Part shown: positions 21,675-62,770 of the stretch, in pieces
Layout: each line of letters starts with the position of its first letter
Numbering within the stretch: position 1 is the first letter of the stretch
NCBI GenBank assembly: GCA_903841185.1
Contig: CAIMIV010000042.1
Span: forward strand, 11,319-75,318
Direction: 5' to 3'
DNA length: 64,000 nucleotides
Source of the DNA: an uncultured bacterium
GTDB taxonomy: Bacteria > Patescibacteriota > Minisyncoccia > Moranbacterales > UBA2206
Position numbers and translations under genes: made by a program
The notes under the pieces: generated by a model
Told to the model about the DNA's origin: nothing
What the model saw: the letters and a program-made list of their open reading frames with translations, nothing else
The model's database searches: none

Positions 21675-21887
21675 ATGGCAGTAAAAAAAGCAGCAGCTAA
21701 AAAAGTTGCGAAAAAGGTTGTAAAAAAAGTAGCAGCTAAAAAAGTTGTGAAAAAGGTTGTAAAAAAAGTAGCAGCTAAAAAAGTTGTGAAAAAAGTAGCA
21801 GCTAAGAAAGTTGCTAAGAAGGTTGTGAAAAAAGCTGTAAAAAAAGCAGCTCCAAAGAAAAAAGTTGTAGCAAAAAAGAAGAAATAA
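21675..21887 (+). CDS. lysine/alanine-rich histone H1-like nucleoid protein
   Basis: 70 aa composed almost entirely of AAKKV/VVKKV repeats, encoded by ~45-bp tandem DNA repeats. A bidirectional terminator follows. Confidence 0.6.
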   Translation: MAVKKAAAKKVAKKVVKKVAAKKVVKKVVKKVAAKKVVKKVAAKKVAKKVVKKAVKKAAPKKKVVAKKKK

Positions 21888-22024: not shown

Positions 22025-22945
22025 TTAAACCGTGATTTGACAGAGGCGCCATTTTTGTGCCAGGTCTTTATGAAATGCGATGTGCGCTTGCGGAAGACGC
22101 TTTCGGATTAGCACCGGCAGTTGTCTTTTTTGCTCCGGACTGATCTCCATGTAACATGTTACATGTACCAAGGCATGAGTATTTTTTAGAGTTTCCATTT
22201 GCTGCAGCAGCTCCTCATAGTGTGCCAGTCCGGCAGCGGCGCTGTAGAGAGCGGATCGCGGTTCATATTTTTGCACGGTGGGGTGGGTGGCGGCATAGAT
22301 TTCGTCGGAGAGATAGGGGAGGTTGGCCAAGATTATCATCTTGGAATTTTCAATGTTCAATTTACAATTTTCAATTAGTGTTTCAAGAAGATTTCCTTGT
22401 AAGAATTTTATTTTTTTGGCCACGCCGTGGGTCTGGGCGTTTTGCTGTGCAACCGTTAGCGCTGCATTAGAAATATCCACGGCGAAGAATTTTGAATTTT
22501 GTCCGCCAGCTGGCGGATTGAATTTCGAATCAATGATTAAATTTTTTAAGATAGAAATAATAATATTGCCCGACCCAGTTCCCACGTCTACAATCATTTG
22601 ATGTTTGATGTTTGATGTTTGATGTTTGCTGGATATTTCCTGCAAGGCCATCTCGACCATCAATTCGGTCTCAGGACGGGGGATGAGCGTATCTGGGGTC
22701 ACAGCGAATGACAGGCCAAAAAACTCCCTGTAGCCCAGAATATAGGCCAAGGGCTCATCGCTCATTCTTCGCGTAATTTTTAAGTCTAAATTTTTAATTT
22801 TTAATGATGGAAGGACATATTCCGGGTAGGTCAGGACGAACTCGCGCGACTTTCCAATTTCTGCCGCAATCAGCACATCCAAGTCCAAGCGGTCAATTTT
22901 CCCGGCATATTTTTTCTGCAGGTCCGCGATGGTGGTCTTTGTCAT
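22025..22945 (-). CDS. prmC: peptide chain release factor N5-glutamine methyltransferase
   Basis: EPLAYILGYREFFGLSFAVTPDTLIPRPETE, SAM motif VDVGTGSGNI, and NLPY in place of NPPY. Confidence 0.75.
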   Translation of the reverse strand: MTKTTIADLQKKYAGKIDRLDLDVLIAAEIGKSREFVLTYPEYVLPSLKIKNLDLKITRRMSDEPLAYILGYREFFGLSFAVTPDTLIPRPETELMVEMALQEISSKHQTSNIKHQMIVDVGTGSGNIIISILKNLIIDSKFNPPAGGQNSKFFAVDISNAALTVAQQNAQTHGVAKKIKFLQGNLLETLIENCKLNIENSKMIILANLPYLSDEIYAATHPTVQKYEPRSALYSAAAGLAHYEELLQQMETLKNTHALVHVTCYMEISPEQKRQLPVLIRKRLPQAHIAFHKDLAQKWRLCQITV

Positions 22946-22954
22946 AATATTTTT

Positions 22955-23815
22955 TTAATCCAGTGGGCTTTTGATAGTCTGCAAATTAGTATTGGCCACC
23001 CTGGTGTAGATCTGTGTCGTTTCAAGGCGTGCATGACCCAGCAACTCTTGGATATAGCGAATGCTCGTGCCGGCTTCTAAAAGGTGAGTGGCGAAAGAAT
23101 GGCGCAAGCTGTGGCAAGAAACTTTTTTAGCAATGCCGGCCAGCTCAACTGCTTTTTTAACTATTTTTTCAGCACTTTCAGCAGTCAGATGTCCTTGTCC
23201 ACCAGCTCCAGTAAATAAATAGTCATTTGGCTTCTTCAGGGTTAATTGTTTTTGTAATGTTGGAATGAGTTTTTCAGATAACAGTGTGCAACGATCTTTT
23301 CCTCCCTTACCTTGGCGAACCATAATCATTTTTCTATCCAAATCAAAATCGCACATTCGGATTTTGATTGTCTCACTAACGCGCAGACCTGCCGAATACA
23401 TTAGTGATATCAAAAAATTATGTTTGGGGTTAGTTGTTTTCTCGAGCATTCGTTCAATCTCTTCTTTACTAAGGATTGTCGGCAGATAGTTGGTTTTTTT
23501 GGCACCTTTTATATCAAAGAAAAATTTGCGTTTCAATATTTGACGGTAATAGAATTTAAGGGCATTAAGTGCAACATTCAGGGTGGAATTGGCACAGTCC
23601 TTGTCTTTCAAAGAGATTAGGTATTGGCGAATGTCATCATTGGTTACTAGTTTGGGGCTTTTATCAGTAAATTGCAAAAAAAGCTTATTATAAAGTACAT
23701 AAGACTTTATAGTTTTTGGGCTAAAACCCCTGATTCTCAACTCTTGTTCTAAATTATACAGAGGGTCTCGTTCTTGAGTTGTTGTTTTTCCATCCATATG
23801 ATAGTATGTGTTCAT
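22955..23815 (-). CDS. tyrosine site-specific recombinase, XerC/XerD-like
   Basis: Catalytic residues in RVSE, KGGKDR, HSLRHSFATHLL, LLGH and QIYTRV. Size is 286 aa. Confidence 0.8.
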   Translation of the reverse strand: MNTYYHMDGKTTTQERDPLYNLEQELRIRGFSPKTIKSYVLYNKLFLQFTDKSPKLVTNDDIRQYLISLKDKDCANSTLNVALNALKFYYRQILKRKFFFDIKGAKKTNYLPTILSKEEIERMLEKTTNPKHNFLISLMYSAGLRVSETIKIRMCDFDLDRKMIMVRQGKGGKDRCTLLSEKLIPTLQKQLTLKKPNDYLFTGAGGQGHLTAESAEKIVKKAVELAGIAKKVSCHSLRHSFATHLLEAGTSIRYIQELLGHARLETTQIYTRVANTNLQTIKSPLD

Positions 23816-23894: not shown

Positions 23895-24189
23895 TTATCG
23901 GAAATAATTTATCACCTATGAATGAAAAATACAAAAAAATAGCCTTATCAGCATATATTCTTACAGCTGCCTATTTATCGACCGTATATAATTTCATTGG
24001 TCTCGTGGGGGCTGATTTTATCTTGGCGATTTTGGTTGCGATTTTACTAAATAGCTTTTTAGCATATCTGATATGGTCGAGTGATAAAACGCGAAAGTAT
24101 TCGGCTATTATTTTGACGATATTATTGTTGTTGGCCGCTCTTCATTTGTTGCCAGTATTTTAAAGGTGGTGATAAATTACATCCGATAA
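23895..24189. repeat. 295-bp unit bounded by 22-bp inverted repeats, enclosing a small ORF
   Basis: Left ttatcggaaataatttatcacc (23895-23916) against the reverse complement of right ggtgataaattacatccgataa (24168-24189) matches at 20 of 22 positions. The enclosed ORF starts 2 nt after the left IR and stops 5 nt before the right IR. Confidence 0.45.
23918..24163 (+). CDS. small membrane protein (2 TM)
   Basis: 81 aa with two hydrophobic helices. Confidence 0.45.
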   Translation: MNEKYKKIALSAYILTAAYLSTVYNFIGLVGADFILAILVAILLNSFLAYLIWSSDKTRKYSAIILTILLLLAALHLLPVF

Positions 24190-24386
24190 CAAAGAATATC
24201 TGGTTCAAAAAATTTGCCACAACTAAAACTAAAAGGAGGGCAAATTTTTCTCTCCCAAATCCCGCACTTTTCCGTTTTGTTGTAATTTAGAGTATAATGA
24301 GATGAATAAATAAATAAGAATATTAAGGTTTTGTGCCTAAAAGCCAAAGTGCAGGACTTCAGATATTCTTAAACGTTAAACGAAAT
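24187..24386 (+). repeat. copy 1 of a ~200-bp island repeat
   Basis: Begins taacaaagaatatctggttc and ends cttaaacgtta. Contains the hairpin aaaaatttgcc..ggcaaattttt with AAGGAGG in the loop and a tagagTATAATgag -10-like box. It is more than 90 percent identical to copies at 24886 and 29396. Confidence 0.7.
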
Positions 24387-24440
24387 TTTGTTCAAAAATA
24401 TTTTTTCATTTTTTATTGAGCCTTTTTGAAATTTTTTTAG

Positions 24441-24749: not shown

Positions 24750-24885
24750 GGTTTAATGTACTGTTTAACACCAAAATTAGCGTTCAAAGTAGCATAGCAG
24801 AAAACCAGTAACCCGTCAAGCCCACGGCCAAAAAATTTCAAAAAGGCTCTTTTAATAAGGAATATATTTTTGAACAAAACATCGT

Positions 24886-25088
24886 TTAACAAAGAATATC
24901 TGGTTCAAAAAATTTGCCGCAGTTAAAAACTAAAAGGAGGGCAAATTTTTCTCTCCCAAATCCAGCACTTTTCCGTTTTGCTGTAATTTAGAGTATAATG
25001 AGATTAACAAAGTAAATAGGAATATCAAGGTTTTGTGCATAAAAACCAAAGTGCAGGACTTCAGATATTCTTAAACGTTAAGTGAAAT
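24886..25088 (+). repeat. copy 2 of the ~200-bp island repeat
   Basis: Near-identical to copy 1 and lies upstream of the + strand ORF at 25216. Confidence 0.7.
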
Positions 25089-25215
25089 AAATCTTTATCT
25101 TTGTGGAAATTTCGAGCCAGGTTGCGTTGAACCAAGACGAAAATTTGATTTTTTTAAAAGTTTTTCCGCCACAGGCGGGATTATTTGGGGCTATTTTATT
25201 TTTAAATATAAAAAT

Positions 25216-28232: not shown

Positions 28233-29255
28233 ATGTCCAAAAACAATCATAAAATTAGCATAAAAGACGAATTGACCGAATTTCTGCTTTACACAGCCCC
28301 AAGTGGCAAGGTAAAAGTAGAAATTTACTTTCATGACGAAAATATTTGGCTTACCCAAGACAAAATGGCCAAATTATTTGGCGTGCAACAACCAGCTATT
28401 GCCAAACACTTGAAGAATATTTTTGAAAGCGGTGAATTGCTGGAAAATTCAGTTCATTCCATTTTGGAATATACTGCCAGCGATGGCAAAAAGTATCAAA
28501 CCAAATTTTATAATCTTGACGCCATAATTTCCGTTGGATATCGGGTAAATTCAGCTCAAGCTACTCAATTTCGCATCTGGGCAACAGAAAGGCTTAAAGA
28601 GTACATCATAAAAGGTTTCACCATAGATGATGAGAGATTGAAGAATGGAAGATATTTTGACAAAGATTATTTTCTCGAACTTTTGGAAAGAGTCCGTTCA
28701 ATTCGTGCTAGTGAGCGAAAAATTTATCAGCAAATTACGGATATTTTTGCTGAATGTAGTATGGATTACAGTCCAACATCAGAAATTGCTAAAAATTTTT
28801 ATGCAATGATTCAAAATAAATTCCATTTTGCTATTACTGGCAAAACTGCAGCTGAGATTATTTATGAGACGGCTGACAAGCAAAAACCATTTATGGGACT
28901 TAAGACTTGGAAAAATTCACCAAATGGCAGAATTATCAAATCCGACACAGTTATCGCTAAAAATTATCTTAACGAGGATAAAATAAAAAAACTGGAAAGA
29001 GGCATTGTCGGCTATTTTGATTACATTGAAAGATTGATTGAGAATCACACCGCTCTCACGATGGAAAAGTTGGCGGAATCTGTAAATAACTTTTTGGAGT
29101 TTAACAAGTACGAAGTGCTTGAAGGAAAGGGCACGATTTCTCATGCCCAAGCAGAACAAAAAGCGTTTCAAGAATATGACGAATATAATAAGACGCAGGC
29201 AATAGAATCTGATTTTGACAAACTTGTAAAATCTTTACCGACTGGAGAAAAATAA
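28233..29255 (+). CDS. RhuM-family virulence/DNA-binding protein
   Basis: N-terminal VKVEIYFHDENIWLTQDKMAKLFGVQQPAIAKHL and the AIISVGYRVNS region match the RhuM family. Confidence 0.65.
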   Translation: MSKNNHKISIKDELTEFLLYTAPSGKVKVEIYFHDENIWLTQDKMAKLFGVQQPAIAKHLKNIFESGELLENSVHSILEYTASDGKKYQTKFYNLDAIISVGYRVNSAQATQFRIWATERLKEYIIKGFTIDDERLKNGRYFDKDYFLELLERVRSIRASERKIYQQITDIFAECSMDYSPTSEIAKNFYAMIQNKFHFAITGKTAAEIIYETADKQKPFMGLKTWKNSPNGRIIKSDTVIAKNYLNEDKIKKLERGIVGYFDYIERLIENHTALTMEKLAESVNNFLEFNKYEVLEGKGTISHAQAEQKAFQEYDEYNKTQAIESDFDKLVKSLPTGEK

Positions 29256-29395
29256 GGAGTTTTGAATTTTAGGCATTCCCGCCAGAGGCGGACAGGCATC
29301 CCTGACCCCTCTGCCCAAAATCCAAAACAAAAAAACTTATTTAATCTATTTAGAATAAAAAGCGAATTTAAAAAAGAAAATAAATTTACATCGTC

Positions 29396-29615
29396 TAACA
29401 AAGAATATCTGGTTCAAAAAATTTGCCGCAGTTAAAAATACAAGGAGGGCAAATTTTTTTCTCCCCTGCCTACCGGCAGGCAGGCAAATCCCGCACTTTT
29501 CCATTTTGTCGTAATTTAGGGTATAATAGGATTAATAAATAAATAGGAATATTAAGGTTTTATGCATAAAAACCAAAGTGCAGGACTTCAGATATTCTTA
29601 AACGTTAGGTGTAAT
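29396..29615 (+). repeat. copy 4 of the ~200-bp island repeat carrying a 22-bp palindromic insertion
   Basis: Same as copies 1 and 2, except that ctgcctaccggcaggcaggca is inserted after ctccc. The same 25-mer occurs at 10297. Confidence 0.7.
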
Positions 29616-29652
29616 TTATTTAAAATCCCTTAAAAAATAAATTAAGAAAAAT

Positions 29653-29955
29653 ATGACAACAATAAATGAGTTTCAAGAAATGTGTGCCAAGGTGGTGGGG
29701 GAGATTGACGCAAAATATGGCATTGCTCGTGACCCGCATTTTAGCTTCACACAATTTATGGAAGAAGTTGGTGAACTGGCGAAAGAGATAAATAAGCCGA
29801 AGTTGCGCAACAAAGAAATGGATCGGGAAAATTTGAACGGTGAATTTGCCGACGTCATCTTGCAGTTTTTCACACTTGCCAGTATGCTAGAAGTAGATGT
29901 GGAAAAGGCAGTTGAAGCTAAAATGGCGATACTGAAAGAGCGACATGATTTATAA
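29653..29955 (+). CDS. MazG-like nucleotide pyrophosphohydrolase domain protein
   Basis: 100 aa with the EEVGELAKEI...EFADVILQ pattern of the MazG/NTP-PPase all-alpha fold. Confidence 0.55.
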   Translation: MTTINEFQEMCAKVVGEIDAKYGIARDPHFSFTQFMEEVGELAKEINKPKLRNKEMDRENLNGEFADVILQFFTLASMLEVDVEKAVEAKMAILKERHDL

Positions 29956-29972
29956 TTTTAAATTACAATCCT

Positions 29973-30392
29973 ATGGGAAGGGAACAACCGCCGACATTTG
30001 ATCCGCGTGATGAGAAATATAAAAAAGTGGAGGATTTGCCGGAAGAAGAGCAGGAGAATTTTGTAAAAGTGAATGGTGGATTTATTACGCAAAAGGCCAA
30101 GCGCTTTGAGGACGCGGTTTTGAAGCAGGAGGAATTGCTTAATCCAAAGATCTTTAGGGGAAAAACTGCTGACATAATTCAAAATAGCTTGAAGGAGTCA
30201 CCGGAGGAATATATAAAGCACCATCGGCGACTAAGGCGGTGTAAAGCGTGGGCCGCTGGAGAGGAAGCCGCTGTGGCCGAAAAAAATATTATGCCGAATG
30301 AGGAGACTATTCCGGAAGACGCTAGTACGGCGGATGGACAGTCAGCTTTGACAGAAGAGGAATTGTCTGAAAAAACATGCAAAAGAATATGA
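29973..30392 (+). CDS. hypothetical acidic protein
   Basis: 139-aa ORF with no motif; its 3' end overlaps the next gene. Confidence 0.35.
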   Translation: MGREQPPTFDPRDEKYKKVEDLPEEEQENFVKVNGGFITQKAKRFEDAVLKQEELLNPKIFRGKTADIIQNSLKESPEEYIKHHRRLRRCKAWAAGEEAAVAEKNIMPNEETIPEDASTADGQSALTEEELSEKTCKRI

Positions 30393-30778
30393 AAAAAGAT
30401 AACAGAAAAAATAGCCGGCGCAGCCTGGTTTTTGTATTAGGTGCTATTTTGTGGTTGAGTGTTATTTTTTTATTTTCTGCCGAGCCGAATTTGCGCTCAC
30501 CTTTTTCCTATAACGTAGATTTCGTTTTACGCAAAATAGCGCACATTGTGGAATATCTTATTTTGACGGTGCTGGTATGGAAGGCTTTGTTGCCGCGAGC
30601 CAAAGGCAACTTGTTGCTGGCGGTTTTTTTGATAGTCTTGAGCGCGGCGGTTTTGGATGAATGTCATCAATTGTTTGTCGCAGGGCGGGAAGGCACGCTC
30701 CGCGACGTGTTGTTTGACGCGGGGGGAATTTTCATTGCTTGGTATTTTATTATTAGAAAAAAAAATGAAAAAAGATAG
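30377..30778 (+). CDS. VanZ-like membrane protein
   Basis: Hydrophobic helices and LDECHQLFVAGREGTLRDVLFDAGG typical of the VanZ family. Confidence 0.55.
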   Translation: MQKNMKKDNRKNSRRSLVFVLGAILWLSVIFLFSAEPNLRSPFSYNVDFVLRKIAHIVEYLILTVLVWKALLPRAKGNLLLAVFLIVLSAAVLDECHQLFVAGREGTLRDVLFDAGGIFIAWYFIIRKKNEKR

Positions 30779-31790
30779 CATCATTGAATTGGAGATGGGT
30801 GGCGGGGGAGAAAAATCATCGCAACTGATTGCGCAGATCCGGAAAAATTTCACGGTGAAGTCCAAATGGAAAAATAGCGCCGATGATGGAGCTGTTTTTG
30901 ATCTTGGTATAAATAATGTGGAGACGCCCCGCCAGGGCGTCTCCACAGCGTCGGATAAATTGGTGTTCACCACGGATGCTTTTATTGTGGATCCGATTTT
31001 TTTTGCCGGCGGCGACATTGGCAAGATTGCTATGTGTGGCACCATCAATGATTTATGCGTGATGGGCGCGCAGCCGATTGGCATTGGTTTGAGTGTGGTA
31101 ATTGAAGAAGGCTTTCCCGTAGATGATTTGGAAAAAATTATGCAGTCTATTGGAAAAATTTCCCAGGAAACCGGCGTGCCGATTGTGACGGGCGACACTA
31201 AGGTGACGGAAAAAGGCAAGCTCGACAAAATTGAAATTACTACATCGGGTGTCGGTTTGGCTAAAATAATAATCAATAATGGTGGAGCCAAGGTGGGCGA
31301 CGCCGTGATTGCCTCGGGCAATCTCGGCGAACACGCGGTGGCGCTTTTGGCGAGCCGCTTTAATTATAAAACAAAAATCCAGAGCGATTGTCAGCCCTTG
31401 ATTAAAGAAATTCAGAATGTTTCCCCGTATCTTACCTCGTGCAAAGACCCGACCCGCGGAGGTATGGCGGCGGTGCTTAATGAAATCGCGGAAAAATCTA
31501 AAGTAAAAATTGTTCTGGAGGAAGAGCTGTTGCCGTTTGCCAAGGAAACGGTGGCACTTTCCGGACTCTTGGGCATTGATAAATTTTCCTTTCCTTCTGA
31601 AGGGCGCTTTGTGGCCACGGTGCCGGAAAAACAGGCCAAAAAAGTGATTAAAATGCTGCAAAAATTCAATCCCGAGGCTAAAATTATCGGCCACGTGGAG
31701 CGTGGACGAGGCGTGCACCTGCAAACATCGCTAGGCAGCAGCAAAAAAATCGAAGTACCGCGAGGAAAGCTAATCCCGCGAATTTGTTAG
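30765..31790 (+). CDS. hypE: hydrogenase maturation protein HypE
   Basis: PurM-like fold, N-terminal ELEMGGGGE, and the C-terminal PRIC motif carrying the thiocyanate-carrier cysteine. The start is taken at the ATG at 30765. Confidence 0.8.
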   Translation: MKKDSIIELEMGGGGEKSSQLIAQIRKNFTVKSKWKNSADDGAVFDLGINNVETPRQGVSTASDKLVFTTDAFIVDPIFFAGGDIGKIAMCGTINDLCVMGAQPIGIGLSVVIEEGFPVDDLEKIMQSIGKISQETGVPIVTGDTKVTEKGKLDKIEITTSGVGLAKIIINNGGAKVGDAVIASGNLGEHAVALLASRFNYKTKIQSDCQPLIKEIQNVSPYLTSCKDPTRGGMAAVLNEIAEKSKVKIVLEEELLPFAKETVALSGLLGIDKFSFPSEGRFVATVPEKQAKKVIKMLQKFNPEAKIIGHVERGRGVHLQTSLGSSKKIEVPRGKLIPRIC

Positions 31791-33119
31791 AAAATATATA
31801 ATCTGCCCAAATGAAAGTCCAGCGTCGCCACGCGGAATTTGCACAACCGGTATCCTTGAGGAGGAGCCGGTTTTTTTATTTTCAAAATATTCAGAAATTA
31901 TTTTGTTGTTGGCGATTCCGCCGGCGATAAAGATTTGTGGTGAGCAACTTTTGGATTGCAGTTCAATAATCTCGCTCAAGCCTTCAGCGATGTAGCGCTG
32001 GGCAGTCGCAGCCAGCCTCCTTTTGTCTTTGTTTATATTTTTAATTAGATATTCAAACAAATAAGTTGTATTCAGTATGTAATGTTTTTTTGAAAATTTA
32101 GTCATTGAAAATTCATTGTAAATTGTAAATTGTAAATTGGAAATTGAAGGGCTTTCCATAACTTCAATCTTTGGTTTTATATCCATATAGGGCTTACCGG
32201 AGTTGCTTTCTAAGAGGTCTATCGCTTCGTGTTTGTAGGTTCTCTTATTGTCGCAAAAACCCAGTAGCAGCGAGACGGCATCTAGGATGCGACCCGTGCT
32301 GGAAGTTTCCAGACAATTAAAATTTTGTTGAAGTTGATTATACAGAACTTCAAATTCCTGCGCGGAATAATATTTTTTCGCGAAATTGTAGATAAAGTTT
32401 TTTTGAGATTTGAGATTTGAGATTTGAGATTTGTTTGTCCCTTGTTTTTTGTAGCTTGTGATTTTATCAAGTATCGCGATTAGCATTCTCGCCGGCTCCT
32501 GAATAGCCAACTCTCCTCCCAGCAATATTTGATTTTCCAAATGCCCAACGCGCTCATTGGAAATTTTAAATTTTAAATTTGTAATTTTAAATATCTCTCC
32601 TCCCCAAATTTTCTCATCTAATCCATACCCCGTTCCATCGAGAGCAATTCCGAAAAAGTTTTGAGTTTTGAGTTTTGAGTTTTGAGATTTGTTTGTATCT
32701 TGTGTCTTGTATCTTGTATCTTGCGTGAGCTCTCCCAATTGGGAGAAGATATGGGCCACGTGGTGTTGAACCTGGACATGCTCAGCTTTAAATTTTTTTG
32801 CTAATTCCTTTCCCCATAAAGTGGTGTTCATATCCGGGTGCAGGTCAGTGATGATGACATCCGGCGTAACGGATGTTTTTTTGAGAAACGCTAGGACAGT
32901 CTTTTGAAAGGCCTTGAAATTAGCGTCTTCTTGGAGATCGCCAAAATCAGGGGAGAAAAAAAGTTGACCATTTTTGAAAAAGGAAAAATTGCCAGCCGAT
33001 TCGGCTCCTAGAGAGAGGATTTGTTGAATGGTGGAATGAGGGTATTTAAAAATTTGCATGATTCGGGTAAAAAGATTATATATGTATGTAGTGTATAATA
33101 GAAATAATGAATTTGACAA
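31770..33119 (-). CDS. HypF-like carbamoyltransferase, Kae1/YgjD-like domain only
   Basis: TDLHPDMNTTLW and VQHHVAH match the HypF C-terminal domain. No acylphosphatase, Zn-finger or YrdC domain is present. Heptanucleotide tandem repeats encode low-complexity inserts. Confidence 0.55.
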   Translation of the reverse strand: MSNSLFLLYTTYIYNLFTRIMQIFKYPHSTIQQILSLGAESAGNFSFFKNGQLFFSPDFGDLQEDANFKAFQKTVLAFLKKTSVTPDVIITDLHPDMNTTLWGKELAKKFKAEHVQVQHHVAHIFSQLGELTQDTRYKTQDTNKSQNSKLKTQNFFGIALDGTGYGLDEKIWGGEIFKITNLKFKISNERVGHLENQILLGGELAIQEPARMLIAILDKITSYKKQGTNKSQISNLKSQKNFIYNFAKKYYSAQEFEVLYNQLQQNFNCLETSSTGRILDAVSLLLGFCDNKRTYKHEAIDLLESNSGKPYMDIKPKIEVMESPSISNLQFTIYNEFSMTKFSKKHYILNTTYLFEYLIKNINKDKRRLAATAQRYIAEGLSEIIELQSKSCSPQIFIAGGIANNKIISEYFENKKTGSSSRIPVVQIPRGDAGLSFGQIIYFLTNSRD

Positions 33120-33270
33120 ATCACGTCACTGTGTTATAAATAAGATTAAGAAGAAAAAAACTATGAATTATTCTTATACACAACAAAATAACTGGCGGCA
33201 TATTCAACTCTTGTAGGAAGAGCTTGGTTATGTTTTGTTATGTATAAAAACAATCACACATAAATATCCA

Positions 33271-33403: not shown

Positions 33404-34195
33404 ATGGGTAAATATGGCGCATGGCAAGTGGGTGCAGGCATGGCGACATTGGGAGATTTGTCAATACCAATTACCCGGGACAAGCCGGGGGTATATGCTC
33501 GCGGAGAATATGGCGCGTTTTCTTCGGAAAGACGTGTAGCGATTTCAGGAGTGTGTTTGTTTGACGCTCGTTGGAGCGTGGAGTTCTCTACGGGCGGTGT
33601 GCGGTCAATCGCTTTGCCGTTGGATCGCTCGCGGGTACAAGATCGTATCCGGGAGCGGGGTTTTGAAGTCTCGCGGGTGATTTTTCCGTTGACGCTGACG
33701 GATTATCACACCAAGCTGTTGCATTTTGTTGCCAATACGGTGGAAAAATTGCAACCGGAAAAGTTGCTTTTCCATATTCCAATTGATGAATATTACGTGT
33801 ATATCCAGGAACTGGAAACGTTGATTGGGGGTGTGATTCCCGATGCCCAGGAGATTCTGGCGGGTTTTGCCGGGAAAGTGACGGACTGTTTTCGGGCAGA
33901 AATGCAGCGGGTCAAATTCGAGCGCTTTGAATTGATCCGGCCGATGCAGTGTGGCGCGGCGGATACGGAGCAATCCTATGCTATGCCCTACCAACAGCCA
34001 GAAGTTTTTGGCACAAACAAGGAGGCAATTTATGCTATTGAGGACCTGGTCGAAATGAAGATTGCTTTATTGACAGAGCAATGTCAGGGATACACCGTGC
34101 CAGTGAAATTCTGCGTGCTGGATATCCCGCATCCCTACGTAACTTTTTCAAAGAAGAATGTTATGCGGGGTGACATGGCAACGGTTTCTCTCTAG
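33404..34195 (+). CDS. hypothetical protein (higher GC than surroundings)
   Basis: 263 aa. A strong SD aggaggtg lies 7 nt upstream. No recognisable motif. Confidence 0.5.
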   Translation: MGKYGAWQVGAGMATLGDLSIPITRDKPGVYARGEYGAFSSERRVAISGVCLFDARWSVEFSTGGVRSIALPLDRSRVQDRIRERGFEVSRVIFPLTLTDYHTKLLHFVANTVEKLQPEKLLFHIPIDEYYVYIQELETLIGGVIPDAQEILAGFAGKVTDCFRAEMQRVKFERFELIRPMQCGAADTEQSYAMPYQQPEVFGTNKEAIYAIEDLVEMKIALLTEQCQGYTVPVKFCVLDIPHPYVTFSKKNVMRGDMATVSL

Positions 34196-34336
34196 GGAGT
34201 GGTCTTCATGGCGACATGTCTAACCATACCTCATCTGTTATTATTACAGATGAGGTATGGTATATTAAATGAATGCAGGAGTTTTAAAAATTAACAATAG
34301 GCCTATTGTGTAATGAGTTGCGTAACAGGTCTAATA

Positions 34337-35328
34337 TTTGTTTTATGAAAATTACAAAGTACAATGTGGATACATATATCCAGGGGAGTGTCTTTTTTGG
34401 CACCGGGGGTGGCTTGCCGGGTGATTTGCACCAAAAAATATTTCAAGATTTACTGGACAGTACGGATGAAATCAATGCGCATCCATTGGAAGCATTCCCG
34501 GATGAGGCGATATTGGTTTCGGCGTATGGCGTGGGCGACCCGTCAAAAATTCCGGAGAATTTCGTGGACAAGGTGCGAGAGGGATTTGCAAAATATAAAA
34601 AATTGACAGGCATAAAAATTGCCGGAATTGTTCCAGGGGAAATCGGTGCAGAGGGATTGGCTTTTCAAGTGGGGGCGTGTGTGGATCTGCCTATTGTGGA
34701 CGCCGATCTTGTAGGTGGGAGAGCTGCTCCGGAAATACAACTAGATGTTTTTAGTGTTTTCGGATTGCCAATAGTCCCAGTGGTTTTGTATGCCATGAAT
34801 GACAAGAGTATTTTTCTGGAAGGCAATTTTAGCGCGCAGGAAATAGAGCATATTTCACGTAATTTCTTCGCGCAAAATGGAGACAGCGGCTTCTTGATCG
34901 GTTATGGCATGTCAGCAGGAGAATATAAGAAATATGCGATGGCAGGCACTTTGTCGCAGACGATGCGAGCAGGGGAATTATTGCACGCTAAAAATAGCGC
35001 CGGCCTGGTAAGTTTGTTTGACGGGAAGATTATGAGCGAGGGGGTTATAGAGGCAGTAGAATTGAAGAGTCAGGATGGTTTTTTGGTAGGAAAAATTAAG
35101 CTCGCAGGAGGCGTGATGGAGGTCAAGAATGAGAACATTTCTTTTTTGCAAAAAAATGGTTCATTGGTGCAAGCACCGGACATCCTGATATTGCTTGCTG
35201 ATGATGGCACTCCTATACATAATACAAAAATAGCTGCCATGGTTGGACAGCACGTACGATTGATTTATCTGCCGGCGCAGGGATACTGGAATAGTGTCAT
35301 AGGGCGAGAACTATGGGAATTGCGGTAG
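34337..35328 (+). CDS. hypothetical protein, possibly DUF917-like
   Basis: A GTGGGLPGD glycine-rich N-terminus. The family assignment is tentative. Confidence 0.4.
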
Positions 35329-35428: not shown

Positions 35429-36199
35429 ATGGAAGAAAATATTAAAAAACCCCGAGTAGCCATTGTCAGTCTGACGTCTTGTGAAGGTTGTCAATTTGCT
35501 CTCCTGGACTTGGGAGAGAAGTTTATCGAATTTGCCACGCAGGTGGAGTTGGTGGATTTTCGTTTGATCGAGGATGAGGAAGATGACGGCCGGGAATTGG
35601 ATTTGGTGTTGGTGGAAGGCAATCCGGTGACGGAAGCTAATTTGAAAACATTGCAGTCGCTGCGCAAAAGAAGCAAGCTTTTAGTGGCCTTAGGAAATTG
35701 TGCGGCCATGGGAGGAGTGCCCGAAATTAAAAATTATCACGAAGGAGTGAACACCATCAAGCACGTCTACAAATATATTCATGGCATTAACAACCCTGAA
35801 ATCAGAGAGATTGATAATTTTGTGAAAGTGGATTTCACTTTTCCGGGATGTCCGATTACGGGAGAAGAATTTTTGCAATATATCCCGTTTCTTTTACGCG
35901 GTGAGATTCCCACAATTCCCGATCAACCGGTGTGTGTGGAATGTCGCGCGGCTGGCAATCGCTGTTTGCTGCTCGATAAGAAGCCTTGTTTTGGTCCGAT
36001 GATCCAAGGAGGGTGTGGCGCGGTTTGTCCCACTTCACGTATGACCTGCCAAGGTTGTCGCGGTTTGCGCCCCACGGGAAATGTCAAGGCGATGCGAGCG
36101 GCGCTTAAGAATATGATTAGTGACCATGAGTTTGAAAATATCGCGGAGATTTTCGGTTTGCGCGATGATATTGAGGCTAGGGAAAAAGAAACGAAATAA
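35429..36199 (+). CDS. NiFe hydrogenase small subunit (group 3-like, delta-type)
   Basis: N-terminal SLTSCEGCQ and GNCAAMGG, plus C-terminal Fe-S cysteine clusters CVECRAAGNRC and CGAVCPTSRMTCQGC. Confidence 0.8.
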   Translation: MEENIKKPRVAIVSLTSCEGCQFALLDLGEKFIEFATQVELVDFRLIEDEEDDGRELDLVLVEGNPVTEANLKTLQSLRKRSKLLVALGNCAAMGGVPEIKNYHEGVNTIKHVYKYIHGINNPEIREIDNFVKVDFTFPGCPITGEEFLQYIPFLLRGEIPTIPDQPVCVECRAAGNRCLLLDKKPCFGPMIQGGCGAVCPTSRMTCQGCRGLRPTGNVKAMRAALKNMISDHEFENIAEIFGLRDDIEAREKETK

Positions 36200-36244: not shown

Positions 36245-37504
36245 ATGCAAATAAAAATCAATCATATTGCAAAGATGGAGGGACATACCGGCTTTATGGC
36301 CAGTGTCATTCATGGGGATGTGCGGAGTGCTAAATTGGAAGTGCAAGAAGGCATCCGCCTGATTGAAGGTGTGTTGATTGGCCGGCACTATGTGGACATG
36401 CCTATTATCGCTCAGCGCATCTGTGGCATCTGTCCGGTAGTGCACAATCTGACTTCCATCAAAGCCTTGGAGAATGCGATGGGGGTGACAGTGACGCCGG
36501 AAACAGAGAAGTTGCGTTCCGTCATGGAGTTGGGACAATTTATTCATTCTCATGCACTGCATCTTTTCTTTTTGTCGTTGGCCGATTTCTTGGATATGGA
36601 TAATGACATCCAGCTGATCAGCACTTATCCGGAAGAAACCAAAATTGCGGTGCGGTTGCGAGAGTTTGGTATGAGCATCGTCAAAGTGATTGGTGGGAGA
36701 GTGATTCATCCGATGAACAACGAGGTGGGCGGATTCAAAAAAGCGCCTGACGCAGAAGCTTTGCGCAAGATTGTGGAGAATAGTGAAGCTATTTTACAAG
36801 ACGCCTTGGCCTTGGGGGAATTTTTCAGAACCATAAAAATTCCGGATTTTCAAAGAAAAACCGAATATATCGCTTTGGGAAAGAAGGGAGAATATGCTAT
36901 TTATGCCGGGGATATTATTTCTTCGGAAGGGTTGCACATCGGTGTGGATAAGTTTGAAAATAATTTCCAGGAATTGCAAAAACAAAAAGAGGTGATTAAG
37001 CGCGTGGAGCATGAGGGCAAGAGTTATATGACCGGGGCCATCGCTCGCATCAATTTGAATCGCGATAAGCTCAATCCTCAAGCGAGTGCCTATTTGGACA
37101 GTTTGGGATTTGTTTTTCCGGATTACAATCCTTTTCATAATATCCTGGCGCAAATGGTGGAAGTGATTCATTGTGTGGAAGAAACCAGTCGCAAATTGAA
37201 AGAAATTTTGCAGAGTGATTTGGAAAAAGTGGTTACACAGCCTTATGAAGTGGCGGAAGGCGTGGGTGTCGCGGCCGTGGAAGCTCCGCGCGGAACACTC
37301 TATTATCACGTGGAAGTGGATGGTAATGGTTATATTAAAAATGCCAACATCATCACTCCCACCGCGCAGGTGCTGGCTAATCTGGAAGATGATATTGCGG
37401 ATTATATCAAGCAAATTATCGATTTGGAAGACGGGACGCGCCAAAAGAAATTACGGGCTTTCATTCGGGCGTATGATCCCTGTATTTCTTGCGCGGTACA
37501 CTAG
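36245..37504 (+). CDS. NiFe hydrogenase large subunit
   Basis: L1 motif RICGICPVVH and L2 motif DPCISCAVH at the extreme C-terminus, with no C-terminal extension. Confidence 0.9.
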   Translation: MQIKINHIAKMEGHTGFMASVIHGDVRSAKLEVQEGIRLIEGVLIGRHYVDMPIIAQRICGICPVVHNLTSIKALENAMGVTVTPETEKLRSVMELGQFIHSHALHLFFLSLADFLDMDNDIQLISTYPEETKIAVRLREFGMSIVKVIGGRVIHPMNNEVGGFKKAPDAEALRKIVENSEAILQDALALGEFFRTIKIPDFQRKTEYIALGKKGEYAIYAGDIISSEGLHIGVDKFENNFQELQKQKEVIKRVEHEGKSYMTGAIARINLNRDKLNPQASAYLDSLGFVFPDYNPFHNILAQMVEVIHCVEETSRKLKEILQSDLEKVVTQPYEVAEGVGVAAVEAPRGTLYYHVEVDGNGYIKNANIITPTAQVLANLEDDIADYIKQIIDLEDGTRQKKLRAFIRAYDPCISCAVH

Positions 37505-38053: not shown

Positions 38054-38173
38054 GGGATGCGTGTGCGAATTCGCCTCCGGCTAGGTTGAAATTTAATAAA
38101 TTAATTCAAGTGCGAATTAGTGCGGGATGCTTATTTTTATAGCTACTCGTTCCTCGCAGATAAAAATAGCATG
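38054..38173 (+). promoter_or_regulatory. partial copy of a structured leader element shared with nusG and rplK
   Basis: gtgcgaattcgcctccggcta ... tgcgaattagtgcgggatgc, then the stem tatttttat/ataaaaata enclosing the ATG at 38171. Confidence 0.4.
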
Positions 38174-38446
38174 CATGATTTTTTTCTGGCCAAACAAATA
38201 TTGGAAAAAATTAGAGAGATAGTCATGGAAAAGAAGTTGGAAAGAATTTCCAAGGTGTCGCTGGAAATTGGCAGTATTGTTTTGGCGCATGACAATCTGC
38301 CGGAACACCTGGAGGATATTAATATTGAAAATCTGGTATTCGGATTGAAAAGTTTTGCGAAAGACACCGCGCTGGCGCAAGTGGAATTTGATGTCCAAAA
38401 AGTGGCGGGAGAAAGTTGGAAAATAACCAGTATTGAGGTAGAATAA
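38171..38446 (+). CDS. HypA-like protein lacking the C-terminal zinc-finger
   Basis: The N-terminus MHDFFLAKQILEKI resembles the HypA MHE(L/M)S start. Length is 91 aa with no CxxC pairs. Confidence 0.35.
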   Translation: MHDFFLAKQILEKIREIVMEKKLERISKVSLEIGSIVLAHDNLPEHLEDINIENLVFGLKSFAKDTALAQVEFDVQKVAGESWKITSIEVE

Positions 38447-61915: not shown

Positions 61916-62770
61916 CTATTTAACCAAAATAAGTTCAATCCCGGCATTCTTGAGAATATCTTCAGCATCAGAAAGGGAATAACCACTTTCGTAATAAACT
62001 TTTTTGATGCCAGCTTCTGCTACCAGTTTGGCGCAAGTTGGGCAAGGAAACGTGGTAACATACAAATTAGTGTTATTTAGACTGATTCCGTCTCTAGCAG
62101 CTTTTCCGACTAGGGATGCTTCTGCATGAATAGAATTGGATAAATGATGATTTTCTCCGGCATCAAAGCACATTCTCAAGTCTCCATAAACAGCCATGTT
62201 TTCTTGGGTGGGCACATGGCGATTGAATGCCGAAAGTATGATGGAGCCTTTTGTGTCTGTGATGAGAGCACCAATTTGCCTCCACCAATTGGCACTTTTT
62301 TCTTTTAGCGCCTTGGCTTTGCTCATGAGCTCTGCATGTGCTTTTTCCTGTGTAATGATTCTGTCGCTGGAAACTTCCAGCTCTTGGGTGGACACCGGCT
62401 TGTTCCATCTCAAGAAGACATTTTCAAATTCAACTTTTTCATGCGGAAGGAATTCTTTTGCAAACCAATGAGACACATCCTCATCTGGCATAACAATAAC
62501 AATATTTTCCTCTTTTGCGTTCTTCAAATCACTTAAATTATCTAATGTCAATAAATCAACTTTTTTTAAGATAGCTGATTTTTTAATGAAATGATAAATA
62601 GTCTCTTGATCAATTGACCGTAAATCTCTTTTTAGGTTTTCAAATTTGTCCCATTTTTTCAGAATGGTGTCATCCAGAATATAAAGATGATCTGGATATT
62701 TTTTGAATAATTCTAGGTATTTAATGTGAATAACAGGAACCAAAGCGATTAAGATTTTTTTTTCAGACAT
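61916..62770 (-). CDS. dCMP/cytidine deaminase domain protein with ~140-aa N-terminal extension
   Basis: C-terminal zinc motifs HAEASLV and PCPTCAKLV. The N-terminal half has no recognisable motif. Confidence 0.65.
   Translation of the reverse strand: MSEKKILIALVPVIHIKYLELFKKYPDHLYILDDTILKKWDKFENLKRDLRSIDQETIYHFIKKSAILKKVDLLTLDNLSDLKNAKEENIVIVMPDEDVSHWFAKEFLPHEKVEFENVFLRWNKPVSTQELEVSSDRIITQEKAHAELMSKAKALKEKSANWWRQIGALITDTKGSIILSAFNRHVPTQENMAVYGDLRMCFDAGENHHLSNSIHAEASLVGKAARDGISLNNTNLYVTTFPCPTCAKLVAEAGIKKVYYESGYSLSDAEDILKNAGIELILVK

What the first reader, a model, noticed from the sequence alone, without database searches (positions are those of the whole stretch)
31770..33119. HypF-like gene reduced to the Kae1-like carbamoyltransferase domain
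Canonical HypF carries acylphosphatase, two Zn fingers and a YrdC domain before the Kae1-like domain. Here only the last domain is recognisable (DLHPDM, VQHHVAH). Carbamoyl-AMP formation normally needs the YrdC domain, so a partner protein or a different chemistry would be required.
Basis: partly seen in the sequence, partly recalled or inferred. Interest (0 to 1): 0.5.

Follow-up and report, generated by a model that had tools for sequence, protein, structure and literature searches.

The report
Truncated HypF maturase: Kae1 domain only
This gene encodes a hydrogenase-maturation enzyme (HypF) that has kept only its last, carbamoyl-transferring domain; this short form is the norm across a group of tiny-genome bacteria (Patescibacteria), so the activated carbamoyl group must come from somewhere else, as was already suspected for the one truncated HypF known before.

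Summary
The ORF at 31770-33119(-) most likely starts at the ATG at 33059 (429 aa). It matches only the two Kae1-like HypF Pfam domains and only positions 385-738 of the 741-position HypF model. An in-frame stop lies just upstream, and the 64-kb window holds no remnant of the acylphosphatase, Zn-finger or YrdC parts.

The gene is not a pseudogene:
- More than 110 protein clusters and 38 Patescibacteria species carry the same short gene in the same place, next to hypE and hoxYH.
- dN/dS is 0.12-0.36, and all metal and nucleotide motifs are invariant.
- The AlphaFold model superposes on the Kae1-like domain of solved HypF structures.

The architecture has a precedent in Cupriavidus necator HypF1 (394 aa, same two domains). 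A rough tree suggests the Patescibacteria form arose by a separate truncation. It carries its own Tyr-Lys-His signature where long HypFs have Tyr-Glu-Gly.

My best reading is that it is a working HypE S-carbamoyltransferase module whose carbamoyl-AMP is made in trans. The supplier is unidentified; Sua5/TsaC is the obvious candidate. I could not scan whole genomes.

A side finding: heptanucleotide tandem arrays are concentrated inside this gene family. A one-unit slip frameshifts the gene in a 99.8%-identical strain.

The parts
31770..33059 (-). Short hypF coding sequence (429 aa, ATG at 33059, stop at 31770-31772). The listed ORF extends to a TTG at 33119, but homologues start at MQIF...
32730..33026 (-). 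HypF_C (PF17788), first Kae1-like subdomain, aa 12-110. Contains GAESAGN (phosphate-1 loop), DLHP and QHHVAH (two metal-binding His).
31803..32651 (-). HypF_C_2 (PF22521), second Kae1-like subdomain, aa 137-419. Contains DGTGYG...WGGE, STGRILD, GGIANN (adenosine motif) and GDAGLSFGQ (metal-binding Asp412).
32229..32234 (-). Lys276-His277. This family-specific pair (present in 113 of 113 clusters) replaces the Glu-Gly of the (Y/F)(E/D)G motif of full-length HypFs.
32693..32723 (-). Heptanucleotide array (TTGTATC x4.4 on the + strand), in frame, in an insertion loop around aa 113-122.
32657..32691 (-). Heptanucleotide array (AGTTTTG x5.0), insertion loop aa 122-134. This insert is absent from all 119 homologues aligned.
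32561..32592 (-). Heptanucleotide array (AAATTTT x4.6) in the loop around aa 157-167. This is a recurrent array site in orthologues.
32402..32433 (-). Heptanucleotide array (TTTGAGA x4.6) in the loop around aa 209-219. A one-unit (7-nt) deletion here frameshifts the gene in strain contig L070.
32115..32146 (-). Heptanucleotide array (ATTGTAA x4.6) in the loop around aa 305-315.
30765..31790 (+). hypE (341 aa, TIGR02124 324 bits, above its cut-off), ending in ...PRIC, the Cys that HypF carbamoylates. It is convergent with short hypF and the 3' ends overlap by 21 nt.
35429..36199 (+). [NiFe]-hydrogenase small subunit (group 3b-like).
36245..37504 (+). [NiFe]-hydrogenase large subunit (group 3b-like), ending ...DPCISCAVH. 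This is the client that needs the Fe(CN)2CO cofactor.
38171..38443 (+). Short hypA (90 aa, MHD N-terminus, no cysteines).

Best explanation
The gene encodes a working, naturally truncated HypF. It consists of the Kae1-like (ASKHA-fold) carbamoyltransferase module alone.

**Shown here**
- The fold, the two metal-binding His, the two metal-binding Asp, and the phosphate and adenosine nucleotide motifs are all intact and invariant.
- The gene sits where full-length hypF sits in related genomes, next to hypE and hoxYH.
- It is under purifying selection across at least 38 species.

**Inferred**
- It performs only the third half-reaction of HypF. It binds carbamoyl-AMP at the metal site and transfers the carbamoyl group to the C-terminal Cys of HypE. 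HypE then dehydrates that group to the thiocyanate that supplies the CN ligands of the [NiFe] site.
- The first two half-reactions (carbamoyl phosphate to carbamate, then carbamate + ATP to carbamoyl-AMP) are done elsewhere in the cell. The intermediate then reaches the enzyme by diffusion. This is how the separate TsaC/Sua5 and TsaD proteins pass threonylcarbamoyl-AMP in t6A synthesis.
- The most likely supplier is the housekeeping YrdC-family enzyme Sua5/TsaC acting promiscuously on carbamate. Only two CN ligands per hydrogenase are needed, so a trace activity could be enough.
For: - **Domain content.**
- **No N-terminal half.** None in the window, none within +-10 kb in 38 Patescibacteria loci, and none among the Pfam-annotated genes in about 20 kb flanking the window.
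- **Family-wide short length.** All 120 best clusters are 359-505 aa and carry only PF17788 + PF22521 (two also carry a PF02543 carbamoyltransferase hit).
- **Conservation.** Invariant columns are D72, H99, H100, H103, D141, G142, G144, G146, W152, G153, E155, R257, D260, G380, G381, D412 and G418 in 81 sequences down to 30% identity. The same residues are conserved in 62 full-length HypFs, and only one residue conserved in the long forms is lost.
- **Structure.** The AlphaFold2 model has pLDDT 88.5 and pTM 0.90. The best Foldseek hits are HypF structures 3VTI, 3VTH, 4G9I and 3TSP, with TM 0.71-0.74.
- **Selection.** dN/dS is 0.12-0.36.
- **Synteny.** The typical locus is hoxEFU-hypC-hypD-hypE, then short hypF convergent, with hoxY-hoxH-dfx-hypA divergent on the other side. 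The full-length relative P0143 occupies the same slot beside hoxY.
- **Rest of the machinery.** HypE is canonical and ends in PRIC. hypC and hypD lie about 4-6 kb beyond the right end of the window in this genome.
- **Precedent.** C. necator HypF1 has the same two domains. It is described as likely requiring carbamoyl adenylate (PMC9100943).
- **Adenylate use.** The invariant GG(I/V)AxN adenosine motif argues that the substrate still carries an adenylate (established ASKHA-family knowledge, combined).
- **Candidate supplier.** TsaC/Sua5 (COG0009) is reported as ubiquitous (PMC10321239).
Against: - No supplier of carbamoyl-AMP was identified. No Sua5/TsaC gene was seen in the DNA I could reach, and I could not scan whole genomes.
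- Carbamoyl-AMP is labile, and canonical HypF channels it internally (PMC6022934), so free diffusion is costly.
- TsaC is not known to adenylate carbamate.
- C. necator HypF1 was inactive in E. coli, which has TsaC (PMC5350229, PMC9100943).
- The invariant switch from Glu-Gly to Lys-His, and the altered phosphate-1 loop (ELKNT to ES(A/N/D)GN), hint at changed chemistry in the remaining domain.
Confidence: 0.5

Rival explanations
1. Self-sufficient module with altered chemistry. The Kae1-like domain itself either makes carbamoyl-AMP from ATP and carbamate or carbamoyl phosphate in its own nucleotide site, or takes the carbamoyl group directly from carbamoyl phosphate. The family-specific Lys276-His277 pair and the remodelled phosphate-1 loop would help. 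No partner is needed.
For: - The Y-K-H signature is present in 113 of 113 Patescibacteria short clusters, whereas 39 of 44 long HypFs have (Y/F)(E/D)G.
- Two other truncated lineages that the tree suggests are independent (C. necator HypF1 and nanoarchaeal L043) have also lost the EG motif.
- Split forms with an adjacent N-terminal half (L066, L067) keep YEG.
- S21, G23 and N24 in the phosphate-1 loop are 97-100% conserved in short forms and about 2-3% in long forms.
- The N-terminal half appears to have been lost at least three separate times. Degenerate intermediates also exist. Together these suggest the N-terminal half is dispensable.
- No conserved partner gene lies nearby.
Against: - ASKHA domains are not known to catalyse adenylyl transfer.
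- In canonical HypF and TobZ this step belongs to the YrdC-like domain (PMC6022934, PMC10321239).
- Loss of EG may simply reflect a lost contact with the missing domain.
Confidence: 0.25
2. Split HypF. The acylphosphatase/Zn-finger/YrdC half is encoded elsewhere in the genome as a separate polypeptide and reassembles with, or feeds, the Kae1-like half.
For: Split arrangements do exist in other lineages. An N-terminal half is immediately followed by a C-terminal half in L066 and L067. Several proteins made of the N-terminal half only sit on long contigs.
Against: - In those cases the halves are adjacent and overlapping, and the C-terminal half keeps YEG.
- In 38 Patescibacteria loci nothing resembling the N-terminal half lies within +-10 kb.
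- Nothing resembling it lies in the 64-kb window or among the genes called in its flanks.
- I searched 5.8 billion proteins with the N-terminal half of the closest full-length relative. No protein named as Moranbacteria appeared among the 120 best hits.
Confidence: 0.1
3. Relic or switchable gene. The protein is no longer a catalyst (a decaying remnant, or merely a HypE-binding scaffold), and the hydrogenase is either inactive or matured by another route.
For: - A strain 99.84% identical over 14.6 kb carries a 7-nt slip that splits the gene.
- Truncated variants occur in other clusters.
- HypF1 of C. necator appears inactive in E. coli (PMC5350229).
Against: - The gene is intact in 38 species.
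- dN/dS is 0.12-0.36.
- Every catalytic and nucleotide-binding motif is invariant across more than 100 clusters.
- hypE, hypC, hypD, hypA and an intact large subunit with both CxxC motifs are retained.
Confidence: 0.07

Closest known systems
HypF1 of Cupriavidus necator (Ralstonia eutropha) H16, megaplasmid pHG1
   Same: It has the same architecture: 394 aa, with only HypF_C + HypF_C_2. It sits in a hyp operon. It has lost the (Y/F)(E/D)G motif. The literature treats it as needing externally made carbamoyl adenylate (PMC9100943).
   Different: - It shares about 22% identity with the window protein.
- In a rough NJ tree it groups with the long C. necator HypF, while the Patescibacteria short forms nest among long HypFs of CPR/DPANN type. 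This suggests independent truncations.
- C. necator also has a full-length HypF on the same replicon. None was seen near the Patescibacteria genes.
- HypF1 lacks the Y-K-H signature and the heptanucleotide arrays.
Canonical four-domain HypF (E. coli 3TSP/3TTC, Caldanaerobacter 3VTH/3VTI, Thermococcus 4G9I)
   Same: The Kae1-like domain has the same fold (TM 0.71-0.74) and the same conserved residues. The partner HypE is the same.
   Different: The short form lacks the acylphosphatase, Zn-finger and YrdC-like domains. It therefore lacks two of the three active sites and the internal channel (PMC6022934). It scores 221 bits against the 466-bit cut-off of TIGR00143.
TsaC/Sua5 + TsaD/Kae1 (t6A synthesis)
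   Same: This is a YrdC-family adenylate-forming enzyme and a Kae1-family transferase working as separate proteins, with a diffusible acyl-adenylate between them. It is the working model proposed here.
   Different: The window protein is not a TsaD (TIGR03723 scores 16.9 bits against a cut-off of 296). The substrate would be carbamoyl-AMP, not threonylcarbamoyl-AMP. The acceptor is a protein thiol, not tRNA A37.
Closest full-length relative P0143 (732 aa, uncultured bacterium, GCA_964431345.1)
   Same: It shares 46% identity across the Kae1-like domain. It occupies the same position, divergent from hoxY-hoxH-hypA.
   Different: It keeps all four domains and the YEG motif, and it has no heptanucleotide-array loops.

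Membership tests
HypF, carbamoyltransferase (TIGR00143 equivalog) | N-terminal acylphosphatase domain (PF00708) | tested here: not met
   There is no Pfam or NCBIfam match, and a stop codon lies 22 codons upstream of the ATG.
HypF, carbamoyltransferase (TIGR00143 equivalog) | Two zf-HYPF zinc fingers (PF07503) | tested here: not met
HypF, carbamoyltransferase (TIGR00143 equivalog) | YrdC-like domain (PF01300) that makes carbamoyl-AMP | tested here: not met
HypF, carbamoyltransferase (TIGR00143 equivalog) | Kae1-like domain with the HxxxH, Asp and Asp metal site and the nucleotide motifs | tested here: met
   PF17788 + PF22521 are present. H99, H103, D141 and D412 are invariant. The fold matches 3VTI and 4G9I. 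The assignment of these four residues as metal ligands rests on my recollection of the E. coli HypF structure paper (Petkun 2011).
HypF, carbamoyltransferase (TIGR00143 equivalog) | Whole-protein score above the curated cut-off | tested here: not met
   221.2 bits against a cut-off of 466.1.
HypF, carbamoyltransferase (TIGR00143 equivalog) | Genomic association with hypE/hypCD and a [NiFe] hydrogenase | tested here: met
HypF, carbamoyltransferase (TIGR00143 equivalog) | Carbamoylates the C-terminal Cys of HypE | not testable with these tools
   This needs biochemistry. HypE with a C-terminal PRIC is present.
Naturally truncated HypF (HypF1 type) | Only the Kae1-like domain, encoded in a hyp/hydrogenase locus | tested here: met
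Naturally truncated HypF (HypF1 type) | Common descent with C. necator HypF1 | tested here: not met
   In the NJ tree HypF1 groups with the long C. necator HypF, and the Patescibacteria short forms sit with CPR/DPANN-type long HypFs. The tree is rough and has no support values.
Naturally truncated HypF (HypF1 type) | A full-length HypF paralogue in the same genome | not testable with these tools
   None was found in about 84 kb of this genome or within +-10 kb in 38 relatives. Whole genomes could not be read.
TsaD/Kae1 tRNA t6A transferase | Score above the TIGR03723/TIGR00329 cut-off | tested here: not met
   16.9 bits against 296, and 15.9 bits against 208.
Simple-sequence-repeat contingency (phase-variable) gene | Tandem repeats, with a unit length not divisible by 3, inside the ORF | tested here: met
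   Five period-7 arrays lie in the gene. Across the Patescibacteria loci, 57 of 120 arrays fall in short hypF.
Simple-sequence-repeat contingency (phase-variable) gene | Unit-number polymorphism between closely related strains that shifts the reading frame | tested here: met
   L070 has lost one 7-nt unit, and this is the only difference in the 1.4 kb compared. This is a single case at DNA level, plus protein-level hints in other clusters.
Simple-sequence-repeat contingency (phase-variable) gene | High-frequency, reversible ON/OFF switching | not testable with these tools
   This needs read-level population data or culture.

The most novel reading that the evidence does not exclude
In Moranbacteria-type Patescibacteria, the cyanide ligands of [NiFe] hydrogenase are made without any dedicated carbamoyl-AMP synthetase. 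Either the housekeeping t6A enzyme Sua5/TsaC doubles as the adenylating half of HypF, or the Kae1-like domain has become self-sufficient through its lineage-specific Lys-His pair. On top of that, heptanucleotide slippage in hypervariable loops of this one gene switches hydrogenase maturation on and off at the population level.
Probability: 0.2. Interest if true: 0.65.

Novelty: new variant of a known kind. Interest (0 to 1): 0.45.

Why it matters
HypF is regarded as a universal four-domain enzyme that channels two labile intermediates through three active sites. One truncated exception, C. necator HypF1, has been an unexplained curiosity since the 1990s, and it coexists with a full-length copy.

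Here the one-domain form is the standard in a large bacterial lineage, and no second copy was seen in the DNA I could reach. The tree suggests it arose separately from HypF1. It is under purifying selection.

That makes the question of where the carbamoyl adenylate comes from directly testable. There is a broad, diverse sequence set and a clear signature (Y-K-H against Y-E-G) to mutate.

It also bears on whether hydrogenases annotated in CPR genomes can be matured at all. The repeat arrays add a possible first case of simple-repeat phase variation in a CPR metabolic gene.

Tried and rejected
- **Diverged N-terminal domains, either upstream or on the other strand.** Rejected. A stop codon lies upstream, the spacer is AT-rich, and neither the HMM nor tblastn finds anything in any frame.
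- **The 736-aa ORF at 14280-16490 as a full-length HypF.** Rejected. It has no Pfam or NCBIfam hits.
- **A conserved unknown neighbour as partner.** I clustered all ORFs within +-9 kb in 40 loci. Only hyp and hox genes, housekeeping genes and shadow ORFs recur. The two genes between hypF and hoxY in this window (a 263-aa protein of unknown function and a DUF917/S-Me-THD-like protein) are specific to this strain.
- **Rosetta-stone fusions.** Three relatives have N-terminal extensions of 100-200 aa (P0155, P0173, P0193/L044). The extensions have no Pfam hit. To my eye two of them look like degenerate remnants rather than a new domain.
- **A standalone N-terminal half in Patescibacteria.** I searched with the N-terminal half of P0143. 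The best proteins made of the N-terminal half only turned out to be adjacent, overlapping split or frameshifted genes in other lineages.
- **Literature.** I found nothing on truncated HypF in CPR/Patescibacteria.
- **Whole-genome absence of YrdC-family genes.** Not possible with the tools.
- **Position of K276/H277 in the 3D model.** Not possible, because coordinates are not exposed.
- **Rfam.** It gave no family for the 3-copy repeat near 24-29 kb.
Full report
**The observation**

The ORF at 31770..33119 on the minus strand is real. Homologues all begin at MQIF..., so the likely start is the ATG at 33059, giving 429 aa. The reading frame is closed by a stop at 33126-33128. The 280 nt upstream are AT-rich and non-coding.

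Pfam finds only the two Kae1-like HypF domains, PF17788 (E=6.6e-23) and PF22521 (E=1.9e-44). The NCBIfam HypF model aligns only over positions 385-738 of 741 and scores 221 bits against a cut-off of 466.

I built an HMM of the N-terminal half (acylphosphatase, Zn fingers, YrdC-like) from 20 full-length HypFs. It recovers every full-length or frameshifted HypF among the fetched loci at E<1e-15. In the window it finds nothing, even on 25-aa fragments with filters off (best E=1.8). tblastn with five N-terminal halves is equally empty. None of the roughly 50 window ORFs that I scanned has a Sua5/YrdC domain.

**It is a conserved family, not an accident**

- A search of 5.8 billion proteins returned 2629 relatives. 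All of the best 120 clusters are 359-505 aa and carry only the two Kae1-like HypF domains (two also carry a PF02543 carbamoyltransferase hit). Where named, they come from Moranbacteria/Moraniibacteriota, Kuenenbacteria, Terrybacteria, Gribaldobacteria and unclassified Parcubacteria/Patescibacteria.
- A scan of species-representative genomes gave 38 Patescibacteria loci. In each, the homologous stretch starts within 76 codons of an upstream stop.
- dN/dS between orthologues is 0.12-0.36.
- Nineteen columns are invariant in 81 sequences down to 30% identity: D72, H99, H100, H103, D141, G142, G144, G146, W152, G153, E155, P189, R257, D260, L283, G380, G381, D412 and G418.
- The same residues are conserved in 62 full-length HypFs, and only one residue conserved in the long forms is lost in the short family.
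- From my memory of the E. coli HypF structure (Petkun 2011), the HxxxH pair and the two Asp residues are the metal ligands of the Kae1-like site. GG(I/V)AxN is the ASKHA adenosine motif.
- An AlphaFold2 model built on the family alignment has pLDDT 88.5 and pTM 0.90. Its best structural matches are the Kae1-like domains of HypF in 3VTI, 3VTH, 4G9I and 3TSP (TM 0.71-0.74), well ahead of TsaD/Kae1.

**Genomic context**

In a related Moraniibacteriota genome the locus reads hoxE-hoxF-hoxU-hypC-hypD-hypE, with short hypF convergent on hypE. On the other side of hypF, divergent from it, lie an AAA ATPase, a gene of unknown function, hoxY, a peptidase, hoxH, desulfoferrodoxin, hypA and gap.

I clustered ORFs from 40 loci. 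HypE is adjacent in 33, hypD is present in 29, hoxY in 25 (typically directly upstream and divergent), and hoxH in 21. No unknown gene recurs.

The window has these genes:
- hypE at 30765-31790, ending in PRIC;
- short hypF;
- hoxY and hoxH, which are group 3b-like;
- desulfoferrodoxin (dfx);
- a 90-aa hypA.

hypC, hypD and a hoxU-like gene are not in the window. They lie about 4-6 kb beyond its right end in the same genome. The client enzyme and the rest of the cyanation machinery are therefore present.

**Relation to what is known**

Canonical HypF has four domains and three active sites joined by an internal channel:
1. The acylphosphatase domain splits carbamoyl phosphate.
2. The YrdC-like domain adenylates carbamate.
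3. The Kae1-like domain transfers the carbamoyl group to the C-terminal Cys of HypE (PMC6022934, PMC9633730).

A naturally truncated form is already known. HypF1 of Cupriavidus necator is 394 aa and contains exactly the same two Pfam domains. [quoted passage not shown] It was inactive in E. coli (PMC5350229, PMC9100943). From memory (Wolf et al. 1998, which I could not check here), it can support maturation in its own host.

In a rough neighbour-joining tree of Kae1-like domains (no support values), the groupings are as follows:
- HypF1 groups with the long C. necator HypF.
- The Patescibacteria short forms make one clade nested among long HypFs of CPR/DPANN type.
- A short nanoarchaeal HypF (L043) groups with yet another long form.

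This suggests that the N-terminal half has been lost at least three separate times. The closest full-length relative is P0143 (732 aa, 46% identity). It lies on a bacterial contig in the same position, divergent from hoxY-hoxH-hypA. This suggests the deletion happened in place. I found no paper that mentions the truncation in CPR bacteria. A 2024 study of Moranbacteria and Berkelbacteria group 3b hydrogenases does not discuss hyp genes.

**A family signature**

Long HypFs have a (Y/F)(E/D)G motif after the SSxGRxxDA helix (39 of 44). All 113 Patescibacteria short clusters have Y-K-H instead. HypF1 and the nanoarchaeal short form have also lost the Glu-Gly. Two split HypFs, whose N-terminal half is encoded immediately upstream, keep YEG.

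The phosphate-1 loop is also remodelled, from ELKNT to ES(A/N/D)GN, with S21, G23 and N24 at 97-100% conservation in the short forms.

There are two possible readings:
- The motif contacts the missing domains and became free to change.
- The Lys-His pair is a gain that alters substrate handling.

I could not locate these residues in 3D because model coordinates are not exposed.

**Mechanism**

What is shown: an intact, conserved Kae1-like transferase with its nucleotide site, linked to HypE. What is inferred: it performs the final carbamoyl transfer to the HypE Cys.

For the source of the activated carbamoyl group I rank four options:
1. **Carbamoyl-AMP made in trans and delivered by diffusion (0.5).** This is how TsaC/Sua5 and TsaD pass threonylcarbamoyl-AMP. 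The near-universal Sua5/TsaC (PMC10321239) is the candidate supplier.
2. **A self-sufficient Kae1-like domain with altered chemistry (0.25).** The Y-K-H signature, the repeated independent losses and the lack of any conserved partner support this.
3. **A free-standing N-terminal half elsewhere in the genome (0.1).** It is not seen within +-10 kb in 38 species. It is also not among the 120 best hits of a search seeded with the closest N-terminal half.
4. **A non-catalytic relic (0.07).** Conservation argues against this.

The retained adenosine motif argues against direct use of carbamoyl phosphate without a nucleotide. The decisive computation, a whole-genome domain scan of complete Moranbacteria genomes, could not be run with these tools.

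**Side finding: heptanucleotide arrays**

The gene contains five in-frame period-7 tandem arrays of about 4.4-5 copies (31-35 nt). They coincide with the low-confidence loops of the model.

Across 40 Patescibacteria loci, 57 of 120 period-7/14 arrays fall inside short hypF, which makes up 8% of the DNA (binomial p about 1e-30). That is 1.13 arrays per kb, against 5 arrays in 249 kb of thirteen neighbouring conserved genes.

The arrays sit at five recurrent loop positions, around aa 129, 163, 204-214, 299-315 and 368-370. The unit sequence differs between genomes.

A contig from another metagenome, 99.84% identical over 14.6 kb, differs inside hypF only by the loss of one 7-nt unit of the CAAATCT array. 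That loss splits the gene into 256-aa and 129-aa ORFs. Other clusters at 90% identity show truncations, or whole-loop replacements, at the same sites.

This matches the defining features of simple-repeat contingency loci, for which heptanucleotide repeats are known in Haemophilus (PMC2651432). Reversible switching is untested. An alternative is that loops exposed by the loss of the N-terminal domains merely tolerate slippage products.

**Verdict**

It is not categorically new, because the architecture and the carbamoyl-adenylate puzzle are known from C. necator HypF1. It is a separate, lineage-wide variant with its own signature, and no full-length paralogue was seen in the DNA I could reach.

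Noticed in passing
window 32115-32146, 32402-32433, 32561-32592, 32657-32691, 32693-32723; also L004-L039 hypF genes: Period-7 tandem arrays (about 4.4-5 copies, 31-35 nt) are concentrated inside short hypF. 57 of the 120 arrays in 619 kb of Patescibacteria loci fall there, which is 1.13 per kb. Thirteen neighbouring conserved genes have at most 0.1 per kb. The arrays sit at five recurrent loop sites, but the unit sequence differs between genomes.
   Followed up: yes
window 32427-32433 vs L070 (ENA ERZ27313544): A contig 99.84% identical over 14.6 kb lacks exactly one 7-nt unit of the CAAATCT array. This frameshifts hypF into 256-aa and 129-aa ORFs. It could be phase variation or a strain-level knockout.
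   Followed up: partly
window 22345-22376, 22597-22628, 22774-22805 (ORF 22025-22945, minus strand): A PrmC-like methyltransferase gene carries three more in-frame heptanucleotide arrays of 4.6 copies. It is the only other gene in the window that has them.
   Followed up: no
window 38171-38443 (+): HypA is only 90 aa. It has the N-terminal MHD (Ni-site-like) motif but no cysteine at all, so it lacks the usual CxxC zinc site. No hypB was seen nearby. The maturation set looks minimal overall.
   Followed up: no
window 24174-24396, 24874-25098, 29383-29625: A non-coding repeat of about 225 nt occurs in three direct copies (65-88% identity). It has no Rfam match. The outer copies bracket a low-GC block (PsbP-like, ABC transporter, RhuM-family) next to a tyrosine recombinase gene at 22955-23815. 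This may be a mobile insertion.
   Followed up: partly
window 28233-30778 and beyond 64000 (L072): In relatives hypC-hypD and hoxEFU lie directly upstream of hypE. Here hypE is preceded by RhuM, MazG, a gene of unknown function and VanZ genes. hypC, hypD and a hoxU-like gene lie about 35 kb away, just past the right end of the window. The cluster has been broken up.
   Followed up: partly
window 33404-34195 (+) and 34306-35328 (+): Two genes sit between hypF and hoxY: a 263-aa protein with no Pfam or NCBIfam hit, and a DUF917/S-methyl-thiohydantoin-desulfurase-like protein. Among the loci examined they are found only in this strain and its near-identical relative L070.
   Followed up: no
window 37460-37504: The hydrogenase large subunit ends exactly at ...DPCISCAVH, with no C-terminal extension. 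No maturation endopeptidase step is therefore expected.
   Followed up: no
window 46584-55682 (+): A 3032-aa ORF lies in a stretch of higher GC (0.47-0.49, against about 0.40 elsewhere). It is followed by isolated tRNA-Ala(TGC) and tRNA-Ile(GAT) genes with no rRNA nearby. I did not analyse the ORF.
   Followed up: no
window 21681-21850: There is a Lys/Ala/Val-rich tandem repeat (periods 12/27/39; a run of AAKKV/VKKV-type units). It starts at an ATG near 21675 and looks like a small histone-H1-like basic protein.
   Followed up: no
L043, L044, P0173, P0193 (DPANN archaea): Nanoarchaeia also have a Kae1-only HypF (364 aa). Woesearchaeota-type relatives carry N-terminal extensions of 170-200 aa with no Pfam hit. 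To my eye these look like decayed YrdC-like remnants, which would make them intermediate stages of the same loss.
   Followed up: partly
window 61916-62770 (-): A deaminase gene has a partial match to the anti-phage dCTP deaminase model (78 bits, below the cut-off of 400). It lies next to thymidylate synthase, DHFR and dUTPase genes.
   Followed up: no
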